Positions 13,042 to 19,362 of a DNA stretch of 19,383 bases are shown piece by piece. Positions within the stretch are counted from its first letter, which is position 1; the number at the start of each line of letters is the position of its first letter. The stretch comes from a virus. The DNA is taken from UHGV virus genome UHGV-1344012; one strand, written 5' to 3'. The notes under the pieces were generated by a model. The model did no database searches and was not told the DNA's origin. It saw nothing but the letters and a program-made list of their open reading frames with translations. The position numbers and the translations under genes are program-made.

Positions 13042-14033
13042 GAGCTCTGCTTACCCCCGAGATCGCCCATCGTATGGGGATTGTGCTGTTCCGTCCCGGT
13101 ACGGAACTGATGCACCTCTTCATGCGTGGTCGCGTTCTGCTCGAGCCTGAACCAGAAGAAATGGCGTCATTCAGTACCGGGGCTGTTCCGGCAGCCATTC
13201 AGCCGCTAGCTGATGATCCGGTAATGCGTCAGGTCTTCGAGAATGAGAGGGTTATTCAGCGTGCCGGTGGGCTTCCTTCCCTTGAGCAATGGTTGAGTAA
13301 TCGGTTTGAATGCCAGTGGCCACATTCAACGTGGCACGACAAGAACTTCACAACAATGCGGCACCCACCAGGAAGTATTCGCCTGTGCTGGCATTGCGAT
13401 CACACTTTGTCGGGGCAGCATACCGAACAGCTTGCAGGTATAGCGGCCGGAAACCTGGTATCCTGGATTCTGGAAGTCATTCGGCGTGATTCTGGTTTTC
13501 CCGAGTCGCATATCCTGACGCTTCCTGAACTGTGCTGGTGGATGGTCAGAAACGACCTGGCTGATGTTATTCCGGAAAGCGTTGCGCACAAAGGGTTGCG
13601 CCTTCCGGATGAGAAGATCCGTTCTGTCATGAGGGAAAGCGACATAGTGCCTTCCTCGTCAGCAACCAGACTCGTGCAGGAGAAGGCGAAGAAGATCCTC
13701 ACGCTCTCTGTTGATCCGGAGTCGCCAGAGTCTTTTATGCTCAGGCCAAAACGTCGCCGCTGGATAAATGAGACGTACACCCGCTGGGTTAAAACACAAC
13801 CCTGTGAGTGTTGCCGACGGCCAGCAGATGATCCGCACCATATCGTAGGGCACGGTATGGGTGGTACAGCAACAAAAGCCCATGACCTCTTCGTGATCCC
13901 TCTGTGCAGAGAGTGCCACGACGAGTTACACGCCGATGTACCAGCATTCGAGCAGAAGCATGGTACGCAGCTTGAGCTGCTACTGCGTTTTATTGATCGA
14001 GCACTGGCGATCGGCGTAATTGCGACAGCTTAA
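13038..14033 (+). CDS. DUF968 family protein (YdfU-like), Cys/His-rich C-terminus
   Basis: 331-aa ORF starting at GTG 13038 (GTGA overlap with the upstream stop; AGGGGG RBS). C-terminal Cys/His cluster (…CECCRRPADDPHHIVGHG…CRECHDELH…) and position just upstream of Q match YdfU-like proteins as recalled. Confidence 0.6.
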   Translation: MRALLTPEIAHRMGIVLFRPGTELMHLFMRGRVLLEPEPEEMASFSTGAVPAAIQPLADDPVMRQVFENERVIQRAGGLPSLEQWLSNRFECQWPHSTWHDKNFTTMRHPPGSIRLCWHCDHTLSGQHTEQLAGIAAGNLVSWILEVIRRDSGFPESHILTLPELCWWMVRNDLADVIPESVAHKGLRLPDEKIRSVMRESDIVPSSSATRLVQEKAKKILTLSVDPESPESFMLRPKRRRWINETYTRWVKTQPCECCRRPADDPHHIVGHGMGGTATKAHDLFVIPLCRECHDELHADVPAFEQKHGTQLELLLRFIDRALAIGVIATA

Positions 14034-14049
14034 GAAGTATGGAGACCGT

Positions 14050-14880
14050 ATGAATCTGGACAATGTTTTAAAGTTTTTTGCGCCTAAAGGCATGCACATC
14101 TCAGATACCAGCAGAGCGACAGCAAGTGAGCAACTTACTGTGACTGATGTAATGGCTGCACTGGGGATGACTCAGGCTGATGCAGGCATCGGGCTGGCAA
14201 TGTTTCTAGGTAAAGCTGGTATCAGCAGCAAGGACAGGGAGATGTCAATTGCCTGGCTAACGGAGTACGCGAAAGAGCATGCGCCCATGGCTATTCGTAA
14301 AGCATCAGGGAAAAAGTTTCCCCTCTGCATGCGTATCCTTGCCCGGTTTGCCTATAACGATTATTCCTCATCAGCAGCTGATTGTGTGGCATGCCCAAAA
14401 TGTAGTGGTAAAGGGTTGCTTACAACCACTAAAACCGTGACTAAAAGCCATTACACAATGCGATTGCCACAATGGGCAAAAGACCTGAGACAGTCACCAT
14501 CTGACTTTGAGGTAAAGCGAGAAGTAACTGACTCCGAGCAAAGTTTATGTTCGCGATGCCATGGTACCGGAAAGTTAAGTAAGCGATGCCAGTGTGGCGG
14601 AACTGGCAAGACGGTTGACCGTAAAGCGACAGAACTGCAGGGCGTACCAGTTTACAAAGAATGTAAGCGCTGCGAAGGGCGGGGATACAGCAGGCCAAAA
14701 TCATCGGTTGCCTATCGAGGTGTTTTTTCTGAGTTGCCGAGTCTGCCTGACCGAACGTGGCGTTATAGCTGGAAACCATTCTATGAAAGCCTGGTGACCA
14801 AATGTTTCCAGGAGGAGAGTTATTCAAGCTCTCAACTGAATCGGGTGACTAAAAGTGAAGATGTGATAAATATCGCGTAA
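14050..14880 (+). CDS. Late-gene antiterminator Q-like protein (phage 82 Q / QuuQ-type, Zn-finger-like), copy 1
   Basis: Start set at ATG 14050 (MNLDNVLKFF…) with GGAG RBS, by alignment to the paralog at 17269. Cys-rich motifs (CPKCSGKG; CSRCHGTGK…CQCGGTGK; CKRCEGRG). Followed immediately by a consensus-like promoter and intrinsic terminator, the classic Q-pR'-tR' arrangement. Confidence 0.7.
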   Translation: MNLDNVLKFFAPKGMHISDTSRATASEQLTVTDVMAALGMTQADAGIGLAMFLGKAGISSKDREMSIAWLTEYAKEHAPMAIRKASGKKFPLCMRILARFAYNDYSSSAADCVACPKCSGKGLLTTTKTVTKSHYTMRLPQWAKDLRQSPSDFEVKREVTDSEQSLCSRCHGTGKLSKRCQCGGTGKTVDRKATELQGVPVYKECKRCEGRGYSRPKSSVAYRGVFSELPSLPDRTWRYSWKPFYESLVTKCFQEESYSSSQLNRVTKSEDVINIA

Positions 14881-14923
14881 TTTAGCGTCATGATGTTTGC
14901 AATGTTGCCGTATTTGTGTATAT

Positions 14924-14951
14924 TTGACATCAATGATGGGCTTTGTATAAC
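14924..14951 (+). promoter_or_regulatory. Candidate late promoter pR' (Q utilisation region)
   Basis: -35 TTGACA (14924-14929), 16-bp spacer, -10 TATAAC (14946-14951), located 44 nt after the Q1 stop. The predicted start site falls in the N run at 14958-14974. Confidence 0.5.
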
Positions 14952-14979
14952 TATCGANNNNNNNNNNNNNNNNNGATAA

Positions 14980-15002
14980 CCTCACCTCGGTGGGGTTTTT
15001 TT
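14980..15002 (+). terminator. Intrinsic terminator (tR'-like) downstream of pR'
   Basis: Hairpin CCTCAC-CTCG-GTGGGG (one G-U pair) followed by seven T (14996-15002). Confidence 0.6.
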
Positions 15003-15013
15003 ATGGTGATAGT

Positions 15014-15550
15014 ATGGAACTGACTAAAGAAAATGTTGCATTAATTGCTGCTTTGGGGATTTTTGTGGGTACATTGATAACTTCTCTTACAAGTTACCTC
15101 CAGAACAGTAGTAGGCAGTCGCATGAGTGGCGCTCAGAAAGAAATAGAAGGAAAATTGAAAAGGGTGAACAGCTTTATGAGGCATTAATACTTTATAAAA
15201 AATTGCTTTTTGCCAATCATATGAGCTGGATAAATTGTATTGATGGGTGTTTTAAATCTGAGGACATTGGCGATAAATCAGACGAAATTCTCAGTAAAAA
15301 CCCTGAGTATAAAGGAGTTGGTGATAGAATTATTTTAATCTCTGGTGTTTATTTTCCTGAGATTAGCGTTATGTTTGATGAATCTAGAAAATTGCTGAAA
15401 CCAGCCAATTCTGTTTTCTTCAAAATACAGTCAGGTGAAGTTGACGATAAGAAGTTGGCGAAGAATATAATTCTAAACGCTGGTCATAATTTTGATAAGG
15501 AGGCTAATAAAATGTTGGACTGTTTATCGAAAGAGATTAGATCGTTGTAA
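15014..15550 (+). CDS. AT-rich cargo (moron) gene: membrane-anchored protein of unknown function
   Basis: 178-aa ORF from ATG 15014 (MELTKENV…) with one N-terminal hydrophobic helix (ALIAALGIFVGTLITSLTSYL) and a Lys/Glu-rich soluble domain. Visibly much more AT-rich than the flanking phage genes; bracketed by two intrinsic terminators. The track's GTG start at 14990 lies inside the terminator hairpin. Confidence 0.6.
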   Translation: MELTKENVALIAALGIFVGTLITSLTSYLQNSSRQSHEWRSERNRRKIEKGEQLYEALILYKKLLFANHMSWINCIDGCFKSEDIGDKSDEILSKNPEYKGVGDRIILISGVYFPEISVMFDESRKLLKPANSVFFKIQSGEVDDKKLAKNIILNAGHNFDKEANKMLDCLSKEIRSL

Positions 15551-15568
15551 CAACTCAAAATTAACGAA

Positions 15569-15592
15569 GGTCACCAGATGGTGGCCTTTTTT
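15569..15592 (+). terminator. Intrinsic terminator after the cargo gene
   Basis: Hairpin GGTCACC-AGAT-GGTGGCC (one G-U pair) followed by TTTTTT (15587-15592), then TATT. Confidence 0.6.
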
Positions 15593-15638
15593 ATTCCCCT
15601 CGTTCTGAGAGGACTCACAGCAATAAAGAGGGGGCTAA

Positions 15639-16025
15639 ATGTCCGATCCGATTTCCGGTACTGGGCTGGCTGGTGGTGTCCTGACGGGAGCTAGCGTCTA
15701 TGGATTTCTGTCCGGAACCGATTACGGCGTGGTGTTTGGCGCATTTGCCGGAGCTGTATTTTACATTGCAACAGCTGCGGACCTTAGTGCAACGCGTCGG
15801 CTGGCGTATTTTGTCGTGTCCTACATCGCCGGGATCATCTGCTCAGGGCTGGTGGGTTCAAAGCTGGCTGACTGGACTGGTTACAGTGATAAGCCTCTGG
15901 ATGCCATCGGTGCCGTAATCGTTTCGGCTTTAGCTGTCAAAATCCTGACGTTCCTGAATAACCAGGATGTCGGCTCTTTGGTGGCGCTGATAACGCGCCG
16001 GGGAGGTTCTGGTGGTACTAAATGA
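15639..16025 (+). CDS. Holin-like membrane protein (about 4 predicted TM segments)
   Basis: 128-aa Gly/Ala-rich ORF with several hydrophobic stretches, GAGGGGG RBS, first gene of the lysis cassette upstream of the endolysin. Confidence 0.6.
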   Translation: MSDPISGTGLAGGVLTGASVYGFLSGTDYGVVFGAFAGAVFYIATAADLSATRRLAYFVVSYIAGIICSGLVGSKLADWTGYSDKPLDAIGAVIVSALAVKILTFLNNQDVGSLVALITRRGGSGGTK

Positions 16026-16293
16026 CCCATCGGCAACAATCAACGCTCTTCTATGCGTCGGGGTGGTGATTACCCTGATGTTTTATCGTCGTGGTGATTC
16101 ACGCCATCGTCCGTGGGTTTCGCGTTTAGCCTGGCTAATTACTGTCACGTACAGCGCTGTGCCTCTGGCCTACCTGTGCGGGATTTATCCTCATTCGTCA
16201 TGGGCCACTATTGGGGCCAACATTATTTTCCTTTCCGTGCTAGTGGCCGTCAGAGGCAACGTTGCGCGCCTGGTTGATCATCTGAGGCACTAA
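16012..16293 (+). CDS. Second holin-like membrane protein (3 predicted TM segments)
   Basis: 93-aa ORF starting at GTG 16012 with GGGAGG RBS 5 nt upstream; overlaps the end of the preceding gene and ends at the endolysin start (TAATG). Three hydrophobic helices. Confidence 0.5.
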   Translation: MVLNDPSATINALLCVGVVITLMFYRRGDSRHRPWVSRLAWLITVTYSAVPLAYLCGIYPHSSWATIGANIIFLSVLVAVRGNVARLVDHLRH

Positions 16294-16907
16294 TGAACCA
16301 ATCACAATTTCAAAAGGCGGCTGGCATTAGCGCCGGGTTAGCTGCGCGCTGGTTTCCGCACATTGATGCTGCAATGAAAGAGTTTGGAATCACAGCAGTT
16401 AACGATCAGGCCATGTTCATTGCACAAGTTGGGCATGAATCTGCTGGTTTTACCTCGCTGGTGGAAAGCTTCAACTACTCGGTAGACGGGCTGAAGAAAA
16501 CCTTTAGTAAACGCCTGACGCCTTATCAGTGTGAAATGCTGGGGCGTGTCGATGGTAAGCAGGTAGCCCACCAGCCGCAAATAGCCAATCTGGTTTATGG
16601 TGACCGCATGGGGAATAACAGCCAGGGTGACGGCTGGAAATATCGCGGTCGTGGCCTGCTGCAAATCACTGGTCGTGAGAACTACACCAAATGCGGTACG
16701 GCGCTGAAGCTTGACCTTGTGAGCACTCCGGAACTATTGACGCAAGAGCGACACGCGGCCCGTTCGGCGGCATGGTACTTCACGTTACGCGGTTGTCTCC
16801 TCTATTCGGGGGATGTGGAACGCGTCACGCAGATTATTAACGGCGGGCAGAACGGCATTAAAGACCGCCGTGAACGTTACGCCAAAGCTAAAGCCGCACT
16901 GGTGTGA
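16293..16907 (+). CDS. Endolysin, glycoside hydrolase family 19 (chitinase-like lysozyme)
   Basis: 204-aa ORF with GH19-like conserved regions (…QAMFIAQVGHESAGFTSLVESFNYS…, …GWKYRGRGLLQITGRENY…) as in Salmonella/E. coli phage GH19 endolysins; follows the holin-like genes. Confidence 0.8.
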   Translation: MNQSQFQKAAGISAGLAARWFPHIDAAMKEFGITAVNDQAMFIAQVGHESAGFTSLVESFNYSVDGLKKTFSKRLTPYQCEMLGRVDGKQVAHQPQIANLVYGDRMGNNSQGDGWKYRGRGLLQITGRENYTKCGTALKLDLVSTPELLTQERHAARSAAWYFTLRGCLLYSGDVERVTQIINGGQNGIKDRRERYAKAKAALV

Positions 16908-16914
16908 GGTCACT

Positions 16915-17265
16915 ATGGGACTTGAAATGATTATCGGCCTGATTGTTGCCGCGCTGGCAGCAATTGCAGGTGCCTTTGGTCTGGGTAAATCTCGCGGTAC
17001 CAGTATCGCAGAAACAAAAGCGGACCGTATGGGTTATGAGAGCCTCGACAAAGACGAACAGGCCGCAATCAATCTTCCTGCCTCAATGATTCGCTTGTTG
17101 AAGCAACGAGAGGGCGAAGGGTGGATCGGTGACATCGGAGCTAATTTCGACTCTCGCTCTCACCAGTTCCTGGAAGGCGAGAAAAAACCATTTAACTACC
17201 TGGTCGGTAAGCCGCAAAGCGAGTTTGATCTCGAGTGGGAAGCCAGCAACGTAACGAGGGTTTGA
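16915..17265 (+). CDS. Small membrane-anchored protein in the spanin position (function unknown)
   Basis: 116-aa ORF from ATG 16915 (GAGG RBS) with one N-terminal TM helix (MIIGLIVAALAAIAGAFGL). It lacks the long coiled coil expected of an Rz-type i-spanin, so the spanin role is not supported. Confidence 0.45.
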   Translation: MGLEMIIGLIVAALAAIAGAFGLGKSRGTSIAETKADRMGYESLDKDEQAAINLPASMIRLLKQREGEGWIGDIGANFDSRSHQFLEGEKKPFNYLVGKPQSEFDLEWEASNVTRV

Positions 17266-17268
17266 GAT

Positions 17269-18101
17269 ATGAAACTTGAAGCTTCACTAAAACACTTTAG
17301 CCCTCAGGGTATGCACATCAGCGACGACGTGAAAGGAACCTCTCCGGACCGCCTTACAGGAACAGATGTAATGGCGGCAATTGGCACCACCANNNNNNNN
17401 NNNNNNNNNNNNNNNNNNNNNNNNNNNNNNNNNNNATCAGCAAAACGGATGAACAGCTCGCAGTTCAGGCGCTGGCGCGATATGCGATGGATGTCGCACC
17501 GAAGAATGTTCGCAAAGCAGCTGGTGGGCAGTTCGGATGGTGCATGCAGATGTTGGCACAATTTGCCTTTGCTGATTATTCACGTTCGGCGGCTACAAGC
17601 GTGACGTGTCACAGCTGCAGTGGTACCGGACGAACAACCCGCGAACAGATTACCCGCAAGGTTTCGTACCCATGGGGTAAAGCTCCATACTGGGCCTGCC
17701 GCTCTCGTGCTGTTCGACCGTCTGACTGGGAGCAGTGGATGGAGGTAACAGAGGTTGTACCGGCGGTCTGTGATGCTTGCGAAGGCAAGGGAACGATCAG
17801 CGCCCGTTGTCGTTGCGGCGGTAAAGGCGAGGTTCTAGACCGCAAGGCCACAAGCGAGCGCGGCGCGCCGGTGTTTAAAACCTGCGAGCGCTGCAGCGGA
17901 AATGGATTTTCTGCGGTGCCGTCTACCGCAGCCTATAAAGTGATACTGAAGCGCGTTCCGGATCTGCACGTCAGAACATGGACTCGCAACTGGAAACCGT
18001 TTCTTGAGGCGCTGGTAAGCATTTGTCAGCAGGAGGAGGGAAACGCCGCAAGAGAATTTCAATCTGCAACCAGTTTAGGCGAAGAAGGTGACGAAATTTA
18101 G
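17269..18101 (+). CDS. Second Q-like antiterminator paralog (interrupted by a 43-nt N run)
   Basis: N-terminus (MKLEASLKHFSPQGMHISD…TGTDVMAAIG) and C-terminal Cys-rich region (CHSCSGTG…; CDACEGKG…CRCGGKG…; CERCSGNG; …RTWTRNWKPF…) align with Q1. Span is not a multiple of 3, so the N run (17393-17435) does not reflect true length. GAGGG RBS before ATG 17269. Confidence 0.65.
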
Positions 18102-18190
18102 CATTATTACGACATAAGGCTTGATTTTGTCCGAAGTTGTCGTGTATGCTTCTAATCATGCGGAGTAACGCCTGAAAGATTTCAACAATA

Positions 18191-18211
18191 AGCCCCTTGC
18201 GGGGCTTTTTT
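18191..18211. terminator. Bidirectional intrinsic terminator between Q2 and the convergent orphan gene
   Basis: Perfect hairpin AGCCCC-TTGC-GGGGCT followed by a T-tract on the plus strand and preceded by an A-rich run (T-rich for the minus-strand transcript). The minus-strand gene's stop codon (18210-18212) overlaps the T-tract. Confidence 0.65.
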
Positions 18212-19160
18212 ATGGCAGCGAGTTAACGAAAGAACTGAAAAGGGCCTTATCTTTATTGCTAATTGATTTTTTCAAATGTAGTTGATGATTTAAAGGTTTA
18301 AAGTTTTCCTTTGTGAGATATATACATGCTTTCTCAAAACGATCCTGAAGGAATTGAAATCTTTCATTCAGCCTGGAAACTTTTAATCCTAATGACATGA
18401 CCTTCTTCTCAGGAATATCGTCAGGATTGCAATTATTGAGTTCTTCCAGCACAAGGCGAATATCTCTTTCGAAGATTAGCGCTATGTTATAATCGTTGAG
18501 GAGGCATTCAGGATTACGAACAATGCCAATTACTTCGTCGATGAATTGTGGTTTTACATTATCCTCAGCATTTTCATCTTCGTTATCGGAAGGTTTTTGA
18601 GACATAACATTCGACAACTGCATTTCTTCCTTGGTTTTCCTTCTGGGAAGTAAAACTTTTCCATCTCCTAAAGCAGCCATACGTTTCAAAGCTTGACTCC
18701 CGGCTCGGCCAACTACTTTAGAATCTCTTAAATCTAAAATTTTATGTGCGACCCATTCTAATGATGGTTCACTGGCTTCGATTTTGGCTTTTGCTTGGTA
18801 ATGGAGAAAAATATTTTTCTTGGCTTCCTTGAGGGCTGTTAGATATCTGTGGAAATTTGCCTTTTTCTCGAGGTCAGTGGCTAGGTTTTCAAATGCTATA
18901 CCGAAGACTTTTGTACCGCAAACGTGACCCAGGTTCGTCTCCAGACCATCCTCAGTAAGAACAAGAAACCCTTTTTTATGGCCTGTTCGACAGCTCGACT
19001 TGCCACACGGGATTTCTTCCGGGAGGTCATCATAATAACCAAAAACATCGGATAATTGTTGATCGGTCAGTTCCAGCCTGGAATGATAGCTTTCCCGAGC
19101 TTGAATTTCTGTCCAGTCATTAATGCGATCAAAGCTATTGCCGTTTTTAATAAAAATCAT
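18210..19160 (-). CDS. AT-rich orphan protein of unknown function (316 aa)
   Basis: Long uninterrupted ORF with a GGGA-type RBS before ATG 19158-19160. Visibly AT-rich relative to the phage backbone, with an acidic low-complexity stretch (SDNEDENAEDN) and a Cys/His cluster (PCGKSSCRTGHKKG…GHVCG). No recognisable family by eye. Confidence 0.6.
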   Translation of the reverse strand: MIFIKNGNSFDRINDWTEIQARESYHSRLELTDQQLSDVFGYYDDLPEEIPCGKSSCRTGHKKGFLVLTEDGLETNLGHVCGTKVFGIAFENLATDLEKKANFHRYLTALKEAKKNIFLHYQAKAKIEASEPSLEWVAHKILDLRDSKVVGRAGSQALKRMAALGDGKVLLPRRKTKEEMQLSNVMSQKPSDNEDENAEDNVKPQFIDEVIGIVRNPECLLNDYNIALIFERDIRLVLEELNNCNPDDIPEKKVMSLGLKVSRLNERFQFLQDRFEKACIYLTKENFKPLNHQLHLKKSISNKDKALFSSFVNSLP

Positions 19161-19285
19161 ATCTTCCCTTGCTCTGGTTAGATTGAAAGCACTGCCGCTT
19201 GATATTTAACCATTTCCCTGATTGTTTTTCATCATAAAACCATATTATTGCAAGGGTAGTTTTACCTATGTATCTTCTTGCTCCC

Positions 19286-19362
19286 GGCCCTTTAGCTCAG
19301 TTGGTTAGAGCGTGCGACTCATAATCGCCCGGTCGCTGGTTCAAGTCCAGCAAGGGCCACCA
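19286..19362 (+). tRNA. tRNA with CAU anticodon (Ile2-lysidine type or Met; ileX/ileZ-like)
   Basis: Cloverleaf readable by eye: acceptor GGCCCTT/AAGGGCC, D-arm GCTC-AGTTGGTTA-GAGC, anticodon loop CTCATAA (CAT), T-arm GCTGG-TTCAAGT-CCAGC, discriminator A and encoded CCA. A candidate promoter (TTGCAA 19248-19253, 17-bp spacer, TATCTT) and GC-rich discriminator lie upstream. Confidence 0.85.

What the first reader, a model, noticed from the sequence alone, without database searches (positions are those of the whole stretch)
18102..19285. Convergent AT-rich 316-aa orphan gene wedged between the second Q module and a tRNA
After Q2 and its terminator one expects lysis or packaging genes on the plus strand. 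Instead there is a single minus-strand gene of atypical composition, with its own RBS and promoter-side region shared with the tRNA, ending in a bidirectional terminator shared with Q2. The protein has an acidic low-complexity stretch and a small Cys/His cluster but no domain I can name. Compositional foreignness, a tRNA-proximal location and no annotation make it a candidate anti-phage, toxin or effector gene.
Basis: partly seen in the sequence, partly recalled or inferred. Interest (0 to 1): 0.65.

Follow-up and report, generated by a model that had tools for sequence, protein, structure and literature searches.

The report
Prophage cargo gene, probable phage defence
A real, well-conserved but uncharacterised zinc-binding protein gene sits backwards as a self-contained cargo cassette inside the late-gene leader of a lambda-like prophage, and is most likely a lysogen-expressed anti-phage factor, though no experiment has tested this.

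Summary
Window 18210-19160 (minus strand) encodes a 316-aa protein. Its GC is 39% against about 50% for the window, and dN/dS is 0.07-0.08. It has a conserved Shine-Dalgarno and a conserved promoter-like motif.

It is not an orphan. It matches PHROG 7003 (unknown function) over its full length and belongs to a family of at least 568 clusters at 50% identity.

The neighbouring tRNA is phage-borne, not a chromosomal integration site. It is followed outside the window by tRNA-Thr, tRNA-Gly, a second lysis cassette and terminase genes.

The "shared terminator" lies after a conserved late-promoter-like block downstream of Q2, so it is best read as tR'. Q2-antiterminated late transcription would therefore run antisense through the gene.

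A related phage has the same promoter block and tRNA but lacks the gene. Distant homologues occupy the same Q-to-holin slot or lie beside the cI repressor.

A high-confidence AlphaFold model (pLDDT 95.8) has no informative match in PDB or BFVD. Pfam, NCBIfam and PADLOC give nothing usable, and the protein is not BstA.

A 62% homologue is listed as a "predicted novel defense gene" by DefensePredictor (log-odds 4.67) and appears untested.

Verdict: a classic moron of an uncharacterised family, with defence the leading but unproven function.

The parts
17269..18101 (+). Q2, a late-gene antiterminator (PF03589). In the window it is split into two reading frames by a masked N-run at 17393-17435.
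   Evidence: Pfam Antiterm E 7e-35. The intact 278-aa protein is seen in L045/L001. It lies tail-to-tail with the target at about 108-135 bp in about 30 loci.
18121..18158 (+). Late-promoter-like block (pR'-like): TTGATT at 18121-18126, an 18-nt spacer, TATGCT at 18145-18150, then a second -10-like hexamer TAATCA at 18153-18158.
   Evidence: Conserved as TTGAYT-N18-TAYNMT plus TAATYA across loci whose flanks diverge. A 41-nt block is 100% identical in E. coli D53-1, where the Q gene is only about 72% identical. Its function is inferred, not shown.
18190..18213 (+). Hairpin (AAGCCCC-TTGC-GGGGCTT) plus T-run. Best read as tR' of the late leader, and probably also the stop signal for the convergent target gene.
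   Evidence: Terminator scan hit on the plus strand only. The hairpin folds on both strands. The stem sequence changes in a compensatory way between loci, GCCCC/GGGGC versus CCCGC/GCGGG. The T-run overlaps the target stop codon.
18210..19160 (-). Target CDS, 316 aa. Residues 1-90 form the zinc-binding alpha/beta domain (nt 18891-19160). The CCHC cluster spans residues 52-81 (nt 18918-19007). Residues 91-316 form the helical domain (nt 18213-18890). The variable acidic loop spans residues 187-207 (nt 18540-18602).
   Evidence: ORF; dN/dS 0.07-0.08; phrog_7003; family alignments A1 and A2; AF2 model with pLDDT 95.8 and pTM 0.84.
19166..19170 (-). Shine-Dalgarno AAGGG, 5 nt upstream of the ATG.
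   Evidence: AAGGR is conserved at the same distance in all aligned homologues, including those in non-phage and tRNA-less contexts.
19204..19232 (-). The target's own promoter-like motif: -35 ATGAAA (19227-19232), a 17-nt spacer, and TG-n-TTAAAT extended -10 (hexamer 19204-19209). The predicted start is near 19197.
   Evidence: The motif is conserved upstream of homologues at 62-67% protein identity. This includes L024 (no tRNA) and L008 (plasmid-like, non-phage context). It scores 8 of 12, below the 9-of-12 threshold of the promoter scan. Expression has not been shown.
19286..19362 (+). Phage-borne tRNA with anticodon CAT, annotated tRNA-Ile in RefSeq. It is the first member of an Ile/Thr/Gly array that continues beyond the window.
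   Evidence: ARAGORN; Rfam tRNA 69 bits; RefSeq annotation and downstream array.

Best explanation
The region is a self-contained cargo cassette (a 'moron') inserted in the leader of the late operon of a lambda-like prophage.

Layout:
- Immediately after Q2 comes a late-promoter-like block.
- About 35-55 nt further on lies a hairpin/T-run terminator (tR'-like).
- The 316-aa gene then lies on the opposite strand, with its own promoter and ribosome-binding site.
- The phage tRNA array follows, then (outside the window) a second lysis cassette and the packaging genes.

Inferred expression logic: in a lysogen, late transcripts would stop at the hairpin, and the gene would be read from its own promoter towards that same hairpin. 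On induction, Q2-modified RNA polymerase would read through the hairpin and run head-on through the gene, which should shut it down.

The product is a soluble cytoplasmic protein with two parts. The N-terminal domain is a conserved CCHC zinc-binding domain. The C-terminal helical domain is more variable and carries a hypervariable acidic loop.

Most likely function (inferred): a single-protein, lysogen-expressed anti-phage factor, acting by superinfection exclusion or abortive infection. I propose that the zinc domain engages a conserved partner and that the variable helical domain and loop set specificity.

Shown: the gene is real, it has cassette anatomy, it is present or absent between related phages, and it occupies a consistent niche. 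Inferred: its expression pattern, the defence function and any mechanism.
For: Gene reality: dN/dS is 0.07-0.08.

Cassette anatomy:
- Low GC, 0.39.
- Conserved Shine-Dalgarno and promoter-like motif, kept even in non-phage context L008.
- Hairpin terminator.

Late-leader placement:
- Conserved promoter block and compensating terminator stem.
- Downstream tRNAs, holin, lysozyme and terminase.

Presence/absence and dispensability:
- D53-1 has the identical 41-nt promoter block and a 94% identical tRNA-Ile but no gene.
- Truncated copies occur in AW1.7 and L037.
- Only 5 (+2 truncated) of 5426 complete E. coli genomes hold this allele, and 22 hold the 62% allele.

Niche:
- About 30 loci carry the gene antisense between a PF03589 Q and variable tRNA and lysis modules.
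- The same slot is used next to a different Q family in Ewingella.
- The same slot is used by a homologue only 23% identical in Leclercia.
- Distant homologues lie in the cI region of Klebsiella, Serratia and Pseudomonas phages.
- In an Oceanisphaera prophage the homologue is 20 bp downstream of cI on the same strand, which is the rexAB-like position.

Independent prediction: the 62% homologue cluster WP_000576620.1 is listed as 'Predicted novel defense gene', mean log-odds 4.67 against a cutoff of 4, in DefensePredictor Table S10 (PMC13092281).

No conserved partner gene was seen in the contexts examined.
Against: - No experiment on any family member was found.
- PADLOC v2 has no match.
- The fold has no informative neighbour that would indicate an activity.
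- No catalytic motif is conserved. The invariant residues are the zinc ligands, glycines, Y43, F86 and N286.
- The DefensePredictor score is only just above the strict cutoff. That study validated 45% of tested units overall, with lower rates at low scores.
- The two niches also host non-defence cargo such as toxins, porins and regulators.
- The N-terminal domain is acidic (pI 5.0), which does not favour simple DNA binding.
- Promoter activity and lysogenic expression are inferred from sequence only.
Confidence: 0.45

Rival explanations
1. It is a lysogenic-conversion factor that acts on the host rather than on phages. Examples would be a zinc-finger regulator or adaptor that changes host physiology, stress tolerance or virulence gene expression while the prophage is dormant.
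For: The moron anatomy and niches are the same as for the defence reading. The Q-to-lysis slot is known (from established knowledge of lambdoid phages) to carry stx, porin and other conversion genes. Homologues occur in STEC prophages next to stx2. One homologue stands alone in a plasmid-like, non-phage context.
Against: No DNA-binding or regulatory domain is detectable. The zinc domain is acidic. The hypervariable loop and variable C-terminal domain look more like an arms-race pattern. Machine-learning prediction points to defence.
Confidence: 0.2
2. It controls the phage's own late switch. Convergent transcription from the gene's promoter, and/or the protein itself, would dampen leaky Q2 and late-promoter activity in the lysogen. 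This would resemble the anti-Q antisense promoter paQ of lambda. It would stabilise lysogeny and, in Stx phages, limit toxin and lysis gene expression.
For: The tail-to-tail position at a near-constant 108-135 bp from PF03589 Q genes is kept from 100% down to 23% protein identity. Every E. coli genome with the same Q2 allele has the gene (7 of 7). The minus-strand terminator tail is weak, so read-through into the late promoter and Q2 is plausible. The gene lies between Q and stx2 in STEC308 and phi467.
Against: Relatives work in places with no Q nearby, such as the cI region and a plasmid-like context. A related phage with the identical promoter block does without the gene. Strong purifying selection on the protein shows that the protein matters, not just the act of transcription.
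Confidence: 0.15
3. It is a counter-defence (anti-restriction or anti-immune) protein, or another accessory protein used by the phage during its own infection.
For: Small zinc-binding and acidic proteins are common among phage inhibitors of host systems (general knowledge). The protein carries an acidic loop. Relatives occur in early regions of Pseudomonas and Klebsiella phages.
Against: Its orientation opposes the surrounding early or late operons in nearly all loci, and it has its own promoter. In one case it sits directly behind cI. Both point to expression in the lysogen, not during infection. At 316 aa it is large for an inhibitor.
Confidence: 0.1
4. It is a secreted toxin or effector, or the toxin of a toxin-antitoxin pair.
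For: Low GC and a prophage location.
Against: There is no signal peptide or membrane segment; the maximum 19-aa hydropathy is 0.82. No toxin domain was found in Pfam, NCBIfam or PADLOC. No adjacent partner gene is conserved across contexts.
Confidence: 0.05

Closest known systems
PHROG 7003 / RefSeq WP_016240226.1 (hypothetical protein)
   Same: Full-length match to the PHROG profile (E 3.5e-118). The window protein is identical to WP_016240226.1 as annotated in FAM21845 and LR536430.1.
   Different: Neither carries any functional information, so this is a name and not an explanation.
DefensePredictor cluster WP_000576620.1 ('Predicted novel defense gene', Science 2026, PMC13092281, Table S10)
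   Same: WP_000576620.1 is the 62%-identical homologue in the same slot, in the order Q, gene, tRNA-Arg x2. It was flagged as defensive with log-odds 4.67 and has no HHblits or Foldseek hit to a known defence protein.
   Different: It is a machine-learning prediction near the cutoff. It is not among the tested units in the supplements held, and the tables were cut when stored. The window allele itself was not found in those tables.
BstA (prophage BTP1 abortive-infection protein, PMC8585504)
   Same: About 300 aa. Single gene. A conserved N-terminal domain plus a more variable C-terminal domain. Prophage-borne. Relatives lie just downstream of the cI repressor.
   Different: There is no homology: hhalign probability is 0.1% and PADLOC gives no hit. 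BstA has a KilA-N-like domain, whereas this protein has a CCHC zinc domain. In the window the gene is in the Q-to-lysis slot, not beside cI.
Classical lambdoid morons and exclusion genes (rexAB and sieB beside cI; stx, nmpC/lc porin and bor in or near the late region)
   Same: An autonomous promoter-gene-terminator unit of deviant GC, placed at operon boundaries, expressed from the prophage, and present or absent between related phages. The comparison with these named genes rests on established knowledge of lambdoid phages.
   Different: The protein is unrelated. It lies antisense within the late leader, between tR' and the tRNA array.

Membership tests
Moron (autonomous cargo cassette in a temperate phage) | Base composition differs from that of the flanking phage genes. 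| tested here: met
   GC 0.391 and GC3 0.360, against 0.52-0.55 for neighbours. The ORF ranks 4th lowest of 369 windows. Homologues have GC of 0.36-0.40.
Moron (autonomous cargo cassette in a temperate phage) | Has its own promoter and terminator, independent of the surrounding operon. | tested here: inconclusive
   A conserved ATGAAA-N17-TGnTTAAAT motif and Shine-Dalgarno travel with the gene into other contexts. A hairpin sits at the 3' end. No transcript data are available, and the motif is below the scan threshold.
Moron (autonomous cargo cassette in a temperate phage) | Present or absent between otherwise related phages at the same site. | tested here: met
   D53-1 has the identical 41-nt promoter block and a 94% identical tRNA-Ile, with about 330 bp of spacer instead of the gene. 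Truncated copies occur in AW1.7 and L037.
PHROG 7003 | Full-length match to the family profile. | tested here: met
   E 3.5e-118, residues 1-315 against profile positions 1-308 of 309.
BstA abortive-infection family | Sequence or profile homology, including the KilA-N-like N-terminal domain. | tested here: not met
   hhalign of the 60-sequence family profile against BstA of BTP1 gives probability 0.1%. PADLOC has no hit at E<=1. No KilA-N hit in Pfam for any of 60 members.
Known anti-phage systems in PADLOC-DB v2.0.0 | Match to any defence protein model. | tested here: not met
   0 families at E<=1. Systems described after 2023 were not testable with this library.
HNH / His-Me finger nucleases | A beta-beta-alpha metal motif with a conserved catalytic His at the end of strand 1 and a conserved Asn/His on the helix. 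| tested here: not met
   No HNH-type Pfam hit in 60 members. The family-invariant residues are C52, C57, H61 and C81 plus glycines. H61 precedes the hairpin at residues 64-77, and no His or Asn is conserved on helix 79-86. No coordinates were available to check the geometry.
HEPN anticodon nucleases (PrrC, RloC and HepS-like, which can be linked to phage tRNAs) | A conserved R-x4-6-H motif. | tested here: not met
   No invariant Arg in the family. Homologues lie next to different tRNA sets or none.
Toxin-antitoxin pair | A conserved adjacent partner gene. | tested here: not met
   Neighbours differ in every context examined.
Functional anti-phage defence gene | Reduces plating or burst of some phage when expressed. 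| not testable with these tools
   Only a machine-learning prediction for the 62% homologue is available.

The most novel reading that the evidence does not exclude
The gene would found a new, widespread family of single-protein anti-phage systems, with a CCHC zinc domain and a helical domain in a fold that has no solved relative. Its antisense placement in the late-operon leader would be functional: the prophage's own Q-driven late transcription would switch the defence gene off at induction, giving a transcription-based form of self-immunity. In Stx2 phages the same cassette lies between Q and stx2 and would influence toxin and lysis gene output.
Probability: 0.2. Interest if true: 0.75.

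Novelty: new member of a known kind. Interest (0 to 1): 0.5.

Why it matters
If the defence reading is right, this adds a compact single-gene immune protein with an unassigned fold. It would be common in gammaproteobacterial prophages, with at least 568 clusters at 50% identity, and easy to test.

The placement is also of practical interest. In some Shiga-toxin phages the same cassette lies between the antiterminator Q and stx2. Transcription that drives toxin production would have to cross it head-on, so it could affect toxin yield and lysogen stability.

Even if the function turns out otherwise, the family is a well-defined, structurally confident target without any Pfam or PDB coverage.

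Tried and rejected
- Pfam, NCBIfam and PADLOC scans of the protein gave nothing usable. Pfam on 60 family members gave only four single-member chance hits.
- PDB sequence searches with the single protein and with the family profile gave only chance-level hits, E >= 0.077.
- The word-indexed protein search with the diverse alignment added almost nothing.
- A genome-contig scan with A1 confirmed no locus. Alignments A2 and A3 were too diverse for pattern scans.
- BstA homology was tested and rejected.
- HNH, HEPN and TA readings were rejected on conserved-residue and context grounds.
- A functional link to the tRNA was rejected, because the adjacent tRNA sets vary or are absent.
- A spurious ORF was rejected by dN/dS. 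One comparison (L034) was mis-framed and was ignored.
- Literature searches by accession found nothing in main texts. The Brenes & Laub prophage-defence paper is not in the library.

Full report
**1. What is in the sequence**

The ORF list shows one long minus-strand ORF at 18210-19160 (ATG start, 316 aa). Upstream on the plus strand lies a PF03589 antiterminator gene that ends at 18101. Downstream lies a tRNA at 19286-19362 with anticodon CAT, which RefSeq annotates as tRNA-Ile.

The ORF has GC 0.391 and GC3 0.360. The window average is 0.50 and the adjacent genes have 0.52-0.55. The ORF ranks 4th lowest of 369 sliding windows. Comparison with copies that are 89-96% identical gives dN/dS of 0.07-0.08, so this is a protein-coding gene under strong purifying selection.

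The acidic stretch (residues 187-207) and the Cys/His cluster both exist.

**2. The surroundings change the reading**

The window carries two antiterminator genes. Q1 is at 14020-14880. Q2 is at 17269-18101. Q2 appears as two ORFs in the window only because a masked run of 43 N (17393-17435) replaces 47 real bases.

Between Q1 and Q2 lie a low-GC membrane-protein ORF and a complete lysis cassette: two holins, a GH19 endolysin and an Rz-like gene.

In the complete genomes that carry this exact arrangement, the target gene is followed by:
- tRNA-Ile, tRNA-Thr and tRNA-Gly;
- a second lysis cassette (class II holin, lysozyme, Rz-like gene);
- terminase, portal and the rest of the late genes.

So the tRNA is phage cargo within the late operon, as in Shiga-toxin phages. 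It is not a chromosomal integration site. The expected lysis and packaging genes are present but lie beyond the window.

**3. The "shared terminator" is best read as tR'**

I aligned the Q-to-target spacer from ten loci whose flanks diverge. The alignment shows these conserved elements:
- TTGAYT, an 18-nt spacer, and TAYNMT (window 18121-18150);
- a second -10-like hexamer TAATYA (18153-18158);
- a hairpin whose stem changes in a compensatory way between loci (GCCCC/GGGGC versus CCCGC/GCGGG);
- a T-run that overlaps the target's stop codon.

The terminator scan reports the hairpin only on the plus strand. It folds on both strands, with a U6 tail on the plus strand and UUAUUGUUG on the minus strand.

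This layout of promoter, promoter-proximal -10-like element, short leader and terminator directly downstream of Q matches lambdoid late promoters. That comparison rests on established knowledge of lambda, 82 and 21 late regulation. Its function here is inferred.

The consequence, also inferred, is that Q2-modified polymerase must read through the hairpin. It must then cross the whole target gene antisense to reach the tRNAs and lysis genes.

**4. The gene is a mobile cassette with its own signals**

Upstream of the ATG, AAGGR is conserved at -12 to -8 in the alignment of homologues. An ATGAAA-N17-TGnTTAAAT motif is also conserved. In the window the -35 lies at 19227-19232 and the -10 at 19204-19209.

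The motif is conserved among homologues of 62-67% protein identity. It is kept where there is no tRNA (L024) and in a plasmid-like, non-phage context (L008).

E. coli D53-1 carries a related Q gene. It has a 41-nt promoter block 100% identical to window 18120-18160, its own terminator, and a 94% identical tRNA-Ile. Between them lies about 330 bp of spacer and no gene.

AW1.7 and one IMG/VR contig retain only the 3' half of the gene.

The allele is rare in complete E. coli genomes:
- the window allele is in 5 of 5426 genomes, plus 2 truncated copies;
- a 62% protein-identity allele is in 22 of 5426;
- every genome with the same Q2 allele also has the gene (7 of 7).

**5. Not an orphan**

The protein matches phrog_7003 (unknown function) end to end, E 3.5e-118. 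A word-indexed search found 15 clusters at 56-97% identity in Enterobacterales.

An exhaustive profile search of 1.84 billion representatives found 568 clusters at E <= 1e-3 and 304 at E <= 1e-10. Most of the listed hits are about 300 aa long. The members that carry source names are all hypothetical proteins from Serratia, Leclercia, Oceanisphaera and Marinomonas.

In 60 diverse members the invariant residues are Y43, C52, C57, H61, G64, G78, C81, G82, F86 and N286. This points to a CCHC zinc site. H79, which the window protein also has, is not conserved and is Asn in phage phi467.

The N-terminal 100 residues are the most conserved part. The C-terminal domain is more variable, and the acidic loop is the most variable region.

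**6. Structure and homology**

With the 60-sequence alignment, AlphaFold gave mean pLDDT 95.8 and pTM 0.84. The model has:
- a small alpha/beta domain (residues 1-90) in which the Cys/His ligands flank a beta-hairpin followed by a helix;
- a helical domain (residues 91-316) with a two-stranded insertion that carries the acidic loop.

Pfam, NCBIfam, PADLOC and PDB sequence and profile searches were negative. The protein is soluble, with no hydrophobic segment. The zinc domain is acidic, pI 5.0.

**7. Where relatives live**

In about 30 phage or prophage loci the gene lies tail-to-tail with a PF03589 Q at 108-135 bp, antisense to the late operon. What follows varies:
- tRNA sets of Ile/degenerate/Thr/Gly, Arg/Arg, Arg/Gly, or none;
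- different lysis cassettes.

The same slot is used in two more distant cases. In Ewingella the gene lies next to a different Q family, PF06323. In Leclercia the slot is used by a homologue only 23% identical.

In STEC308 the order is Q, homologue, tRNA-Arg, stxA2, IS2, stxB2. Stx phage phi467 has a frameshifted distant homologue between Q and stxA.

Other distant relatives sit in the immunity region:
- between the early-left operon and an HTH+S24 cI repressor in a Klebsiella phage and in two Serratia prophages;
- near the repressor in a Pseudomonas phage;
- 20 bp downstream of cI on the same strand in an Oceanisphaera prophage, the position rexAB holds in lambda.

One homologue is solitary in a plasmid-like context. 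No partner gene is conserved across these contexts.

These two niches are the classical sites for genes expressed from a dormant lambdoid prophage.

**8. Comparison with what is known**

BstA resembles this protein in size, two-domain logic and position behind cI (PMC8585504). It is not related: hhalign probability is 0.1% and PADLOC gives no hit.

The conserved residues and the contexts do not support HNH, HEPN or toxin-antitoxin readings.

The only functional pointer in the literature held is DefensePredictor (PMC13092281). Its Table S10 lists WP_096111884.1, cluster WP_000576620.1. This is the accession of the 62% homologue in STEC799. It is listed as "Predicted novel defense gene" with mean log-odds 4.67 (sd 0.80), and the strict cutoff is 4. 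It has no HHblits or Foldseek hit to a known defence protein.

That study validated 45% of its tested units overall, with the rate rising with score. I found no sign that this cluster was tested, but several of the tables were cut when stored.

**9. Interpretation**

What is shown:
- a real, selected gene;
- cassette anatomy;
- presence or absence at a fixed site;
- embedding antisense in the late leader;
- a large family with a CCHC site and a confidently predicted fold that has no solved relative.

What is inferred: expression in the lysogen from its own promoter, silencing by head-on late transcription at induction, and function.

I rank a lysogen-expressed single-protein anti-phage function first, at about 0.45. 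The rivals are:
- a host-directed conversion factor, 0.2;
- a brake on the phage's own Q and late switch through convergent transcription or the protein, 0.15;
- counter-defence, 0.1;
- a toxin or effector, 0.05.

**10. Verdict**

This is an ordinary kind of object, a lambdoid moron in the Q-to-lysis slot, carrying an uncharacterised and structurally unassigned protein family. It is a good, cheap experimental target rather than a surprise.

The claims "orphan", "tRNA-proximal island" and "terminator shared with Q2" need correcting.

Noticed in passing
window 14020-18101, plus L045 13434-14735: The prophage carries two antiterminator genes in tandem, each followed by its own lysis cassette. The order is Q1, a low-GC ORF, holin, holin, GH19 endolysin, Rz-like gene, then Q2, the target, tRNAs, and a second holin, lysozyme and Rz-like gene. 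Only 2 of 5426 complete E. coli genomes have this exact arrangement. Other carriers join DUF968 directly to Q2 (L011), or begin their similarity to the window exactly at the Q2 start (MS 115-1, LR536431).
   Followed up: partly
window 14990-15550 (+): A second low-GC cargo-like ORF (GC 0.348, 186 aa) with an N-terminal membrane segment. It has only a weak HemY_N hit and lies in the equivalent slot between Q1 and the first holin. FAM21845 has a different 249-aa hypothetical gene at this position. No PADLOC or NCBIfam match.
   Followed up: partly
window 17393-17435: A masked run of 43 N replaces 47 real bases inside Q2. This shifts the frame, so ORF finders split Q2 into two pieces (17269-17604 and 17487-18101).
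   Followed up: yes
L011 4723-4796 (and the same position in about 12 other loci; outside the window, just after the tRNA-Ile): Between the tRNA-Ile-like and tRNA-Thr genes, ARAGORN reports a tRNA-like gene with a two-base anticodon loop call ('???'). One locus (L019) has a tRNA-Leu(TAA) there instead. This may be a degenerate or unusual phage tRNA.
   Followed up: no
L044 3577-5945 (STEC308) and L005 2278-4875 (phage phi467): Homologues of the target lie antisense between the antiterminator Q and the stx2 genes in Shiga-toxin prophages. In phi467 the homologue is split into 136-aa and 173-aa ORFs. In STEC308 an IS2 separates stxA2 from stxB2.
   Followed up: partly
L002 8109-8684 (E. coli AW1.7) and L037 5001-5504: Truncated copies keep only the 3' half of the gene (from about window 18717 downwards). 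They are fused to a different upstream sequence and a different tRNA pair (Asn/Arg), which indicates a recombination breakpoint inside the gene.
   Followed up: partly
L050 5516-6950 (E. coli D53-1): A related phage lacks the target gene. Its slot between the tRNA array and the holin instead holds other cargo: a KilA-N protein, a ribbon-helix-helix protein and an Ibs type I toxin.
   Followed up: no
L004 5639-6073 and L006 4952-5941: In the Klebsiella and Pseudomonas phages, the distant homologue is followed on the same strand by a second unknown ORF (144 aa and 329 aa). These ORFs have no Pfam match and are not visibly related to each other in length or annotation. A two-gene arrangement in those lineages is not excluded.
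   Followed up: partly
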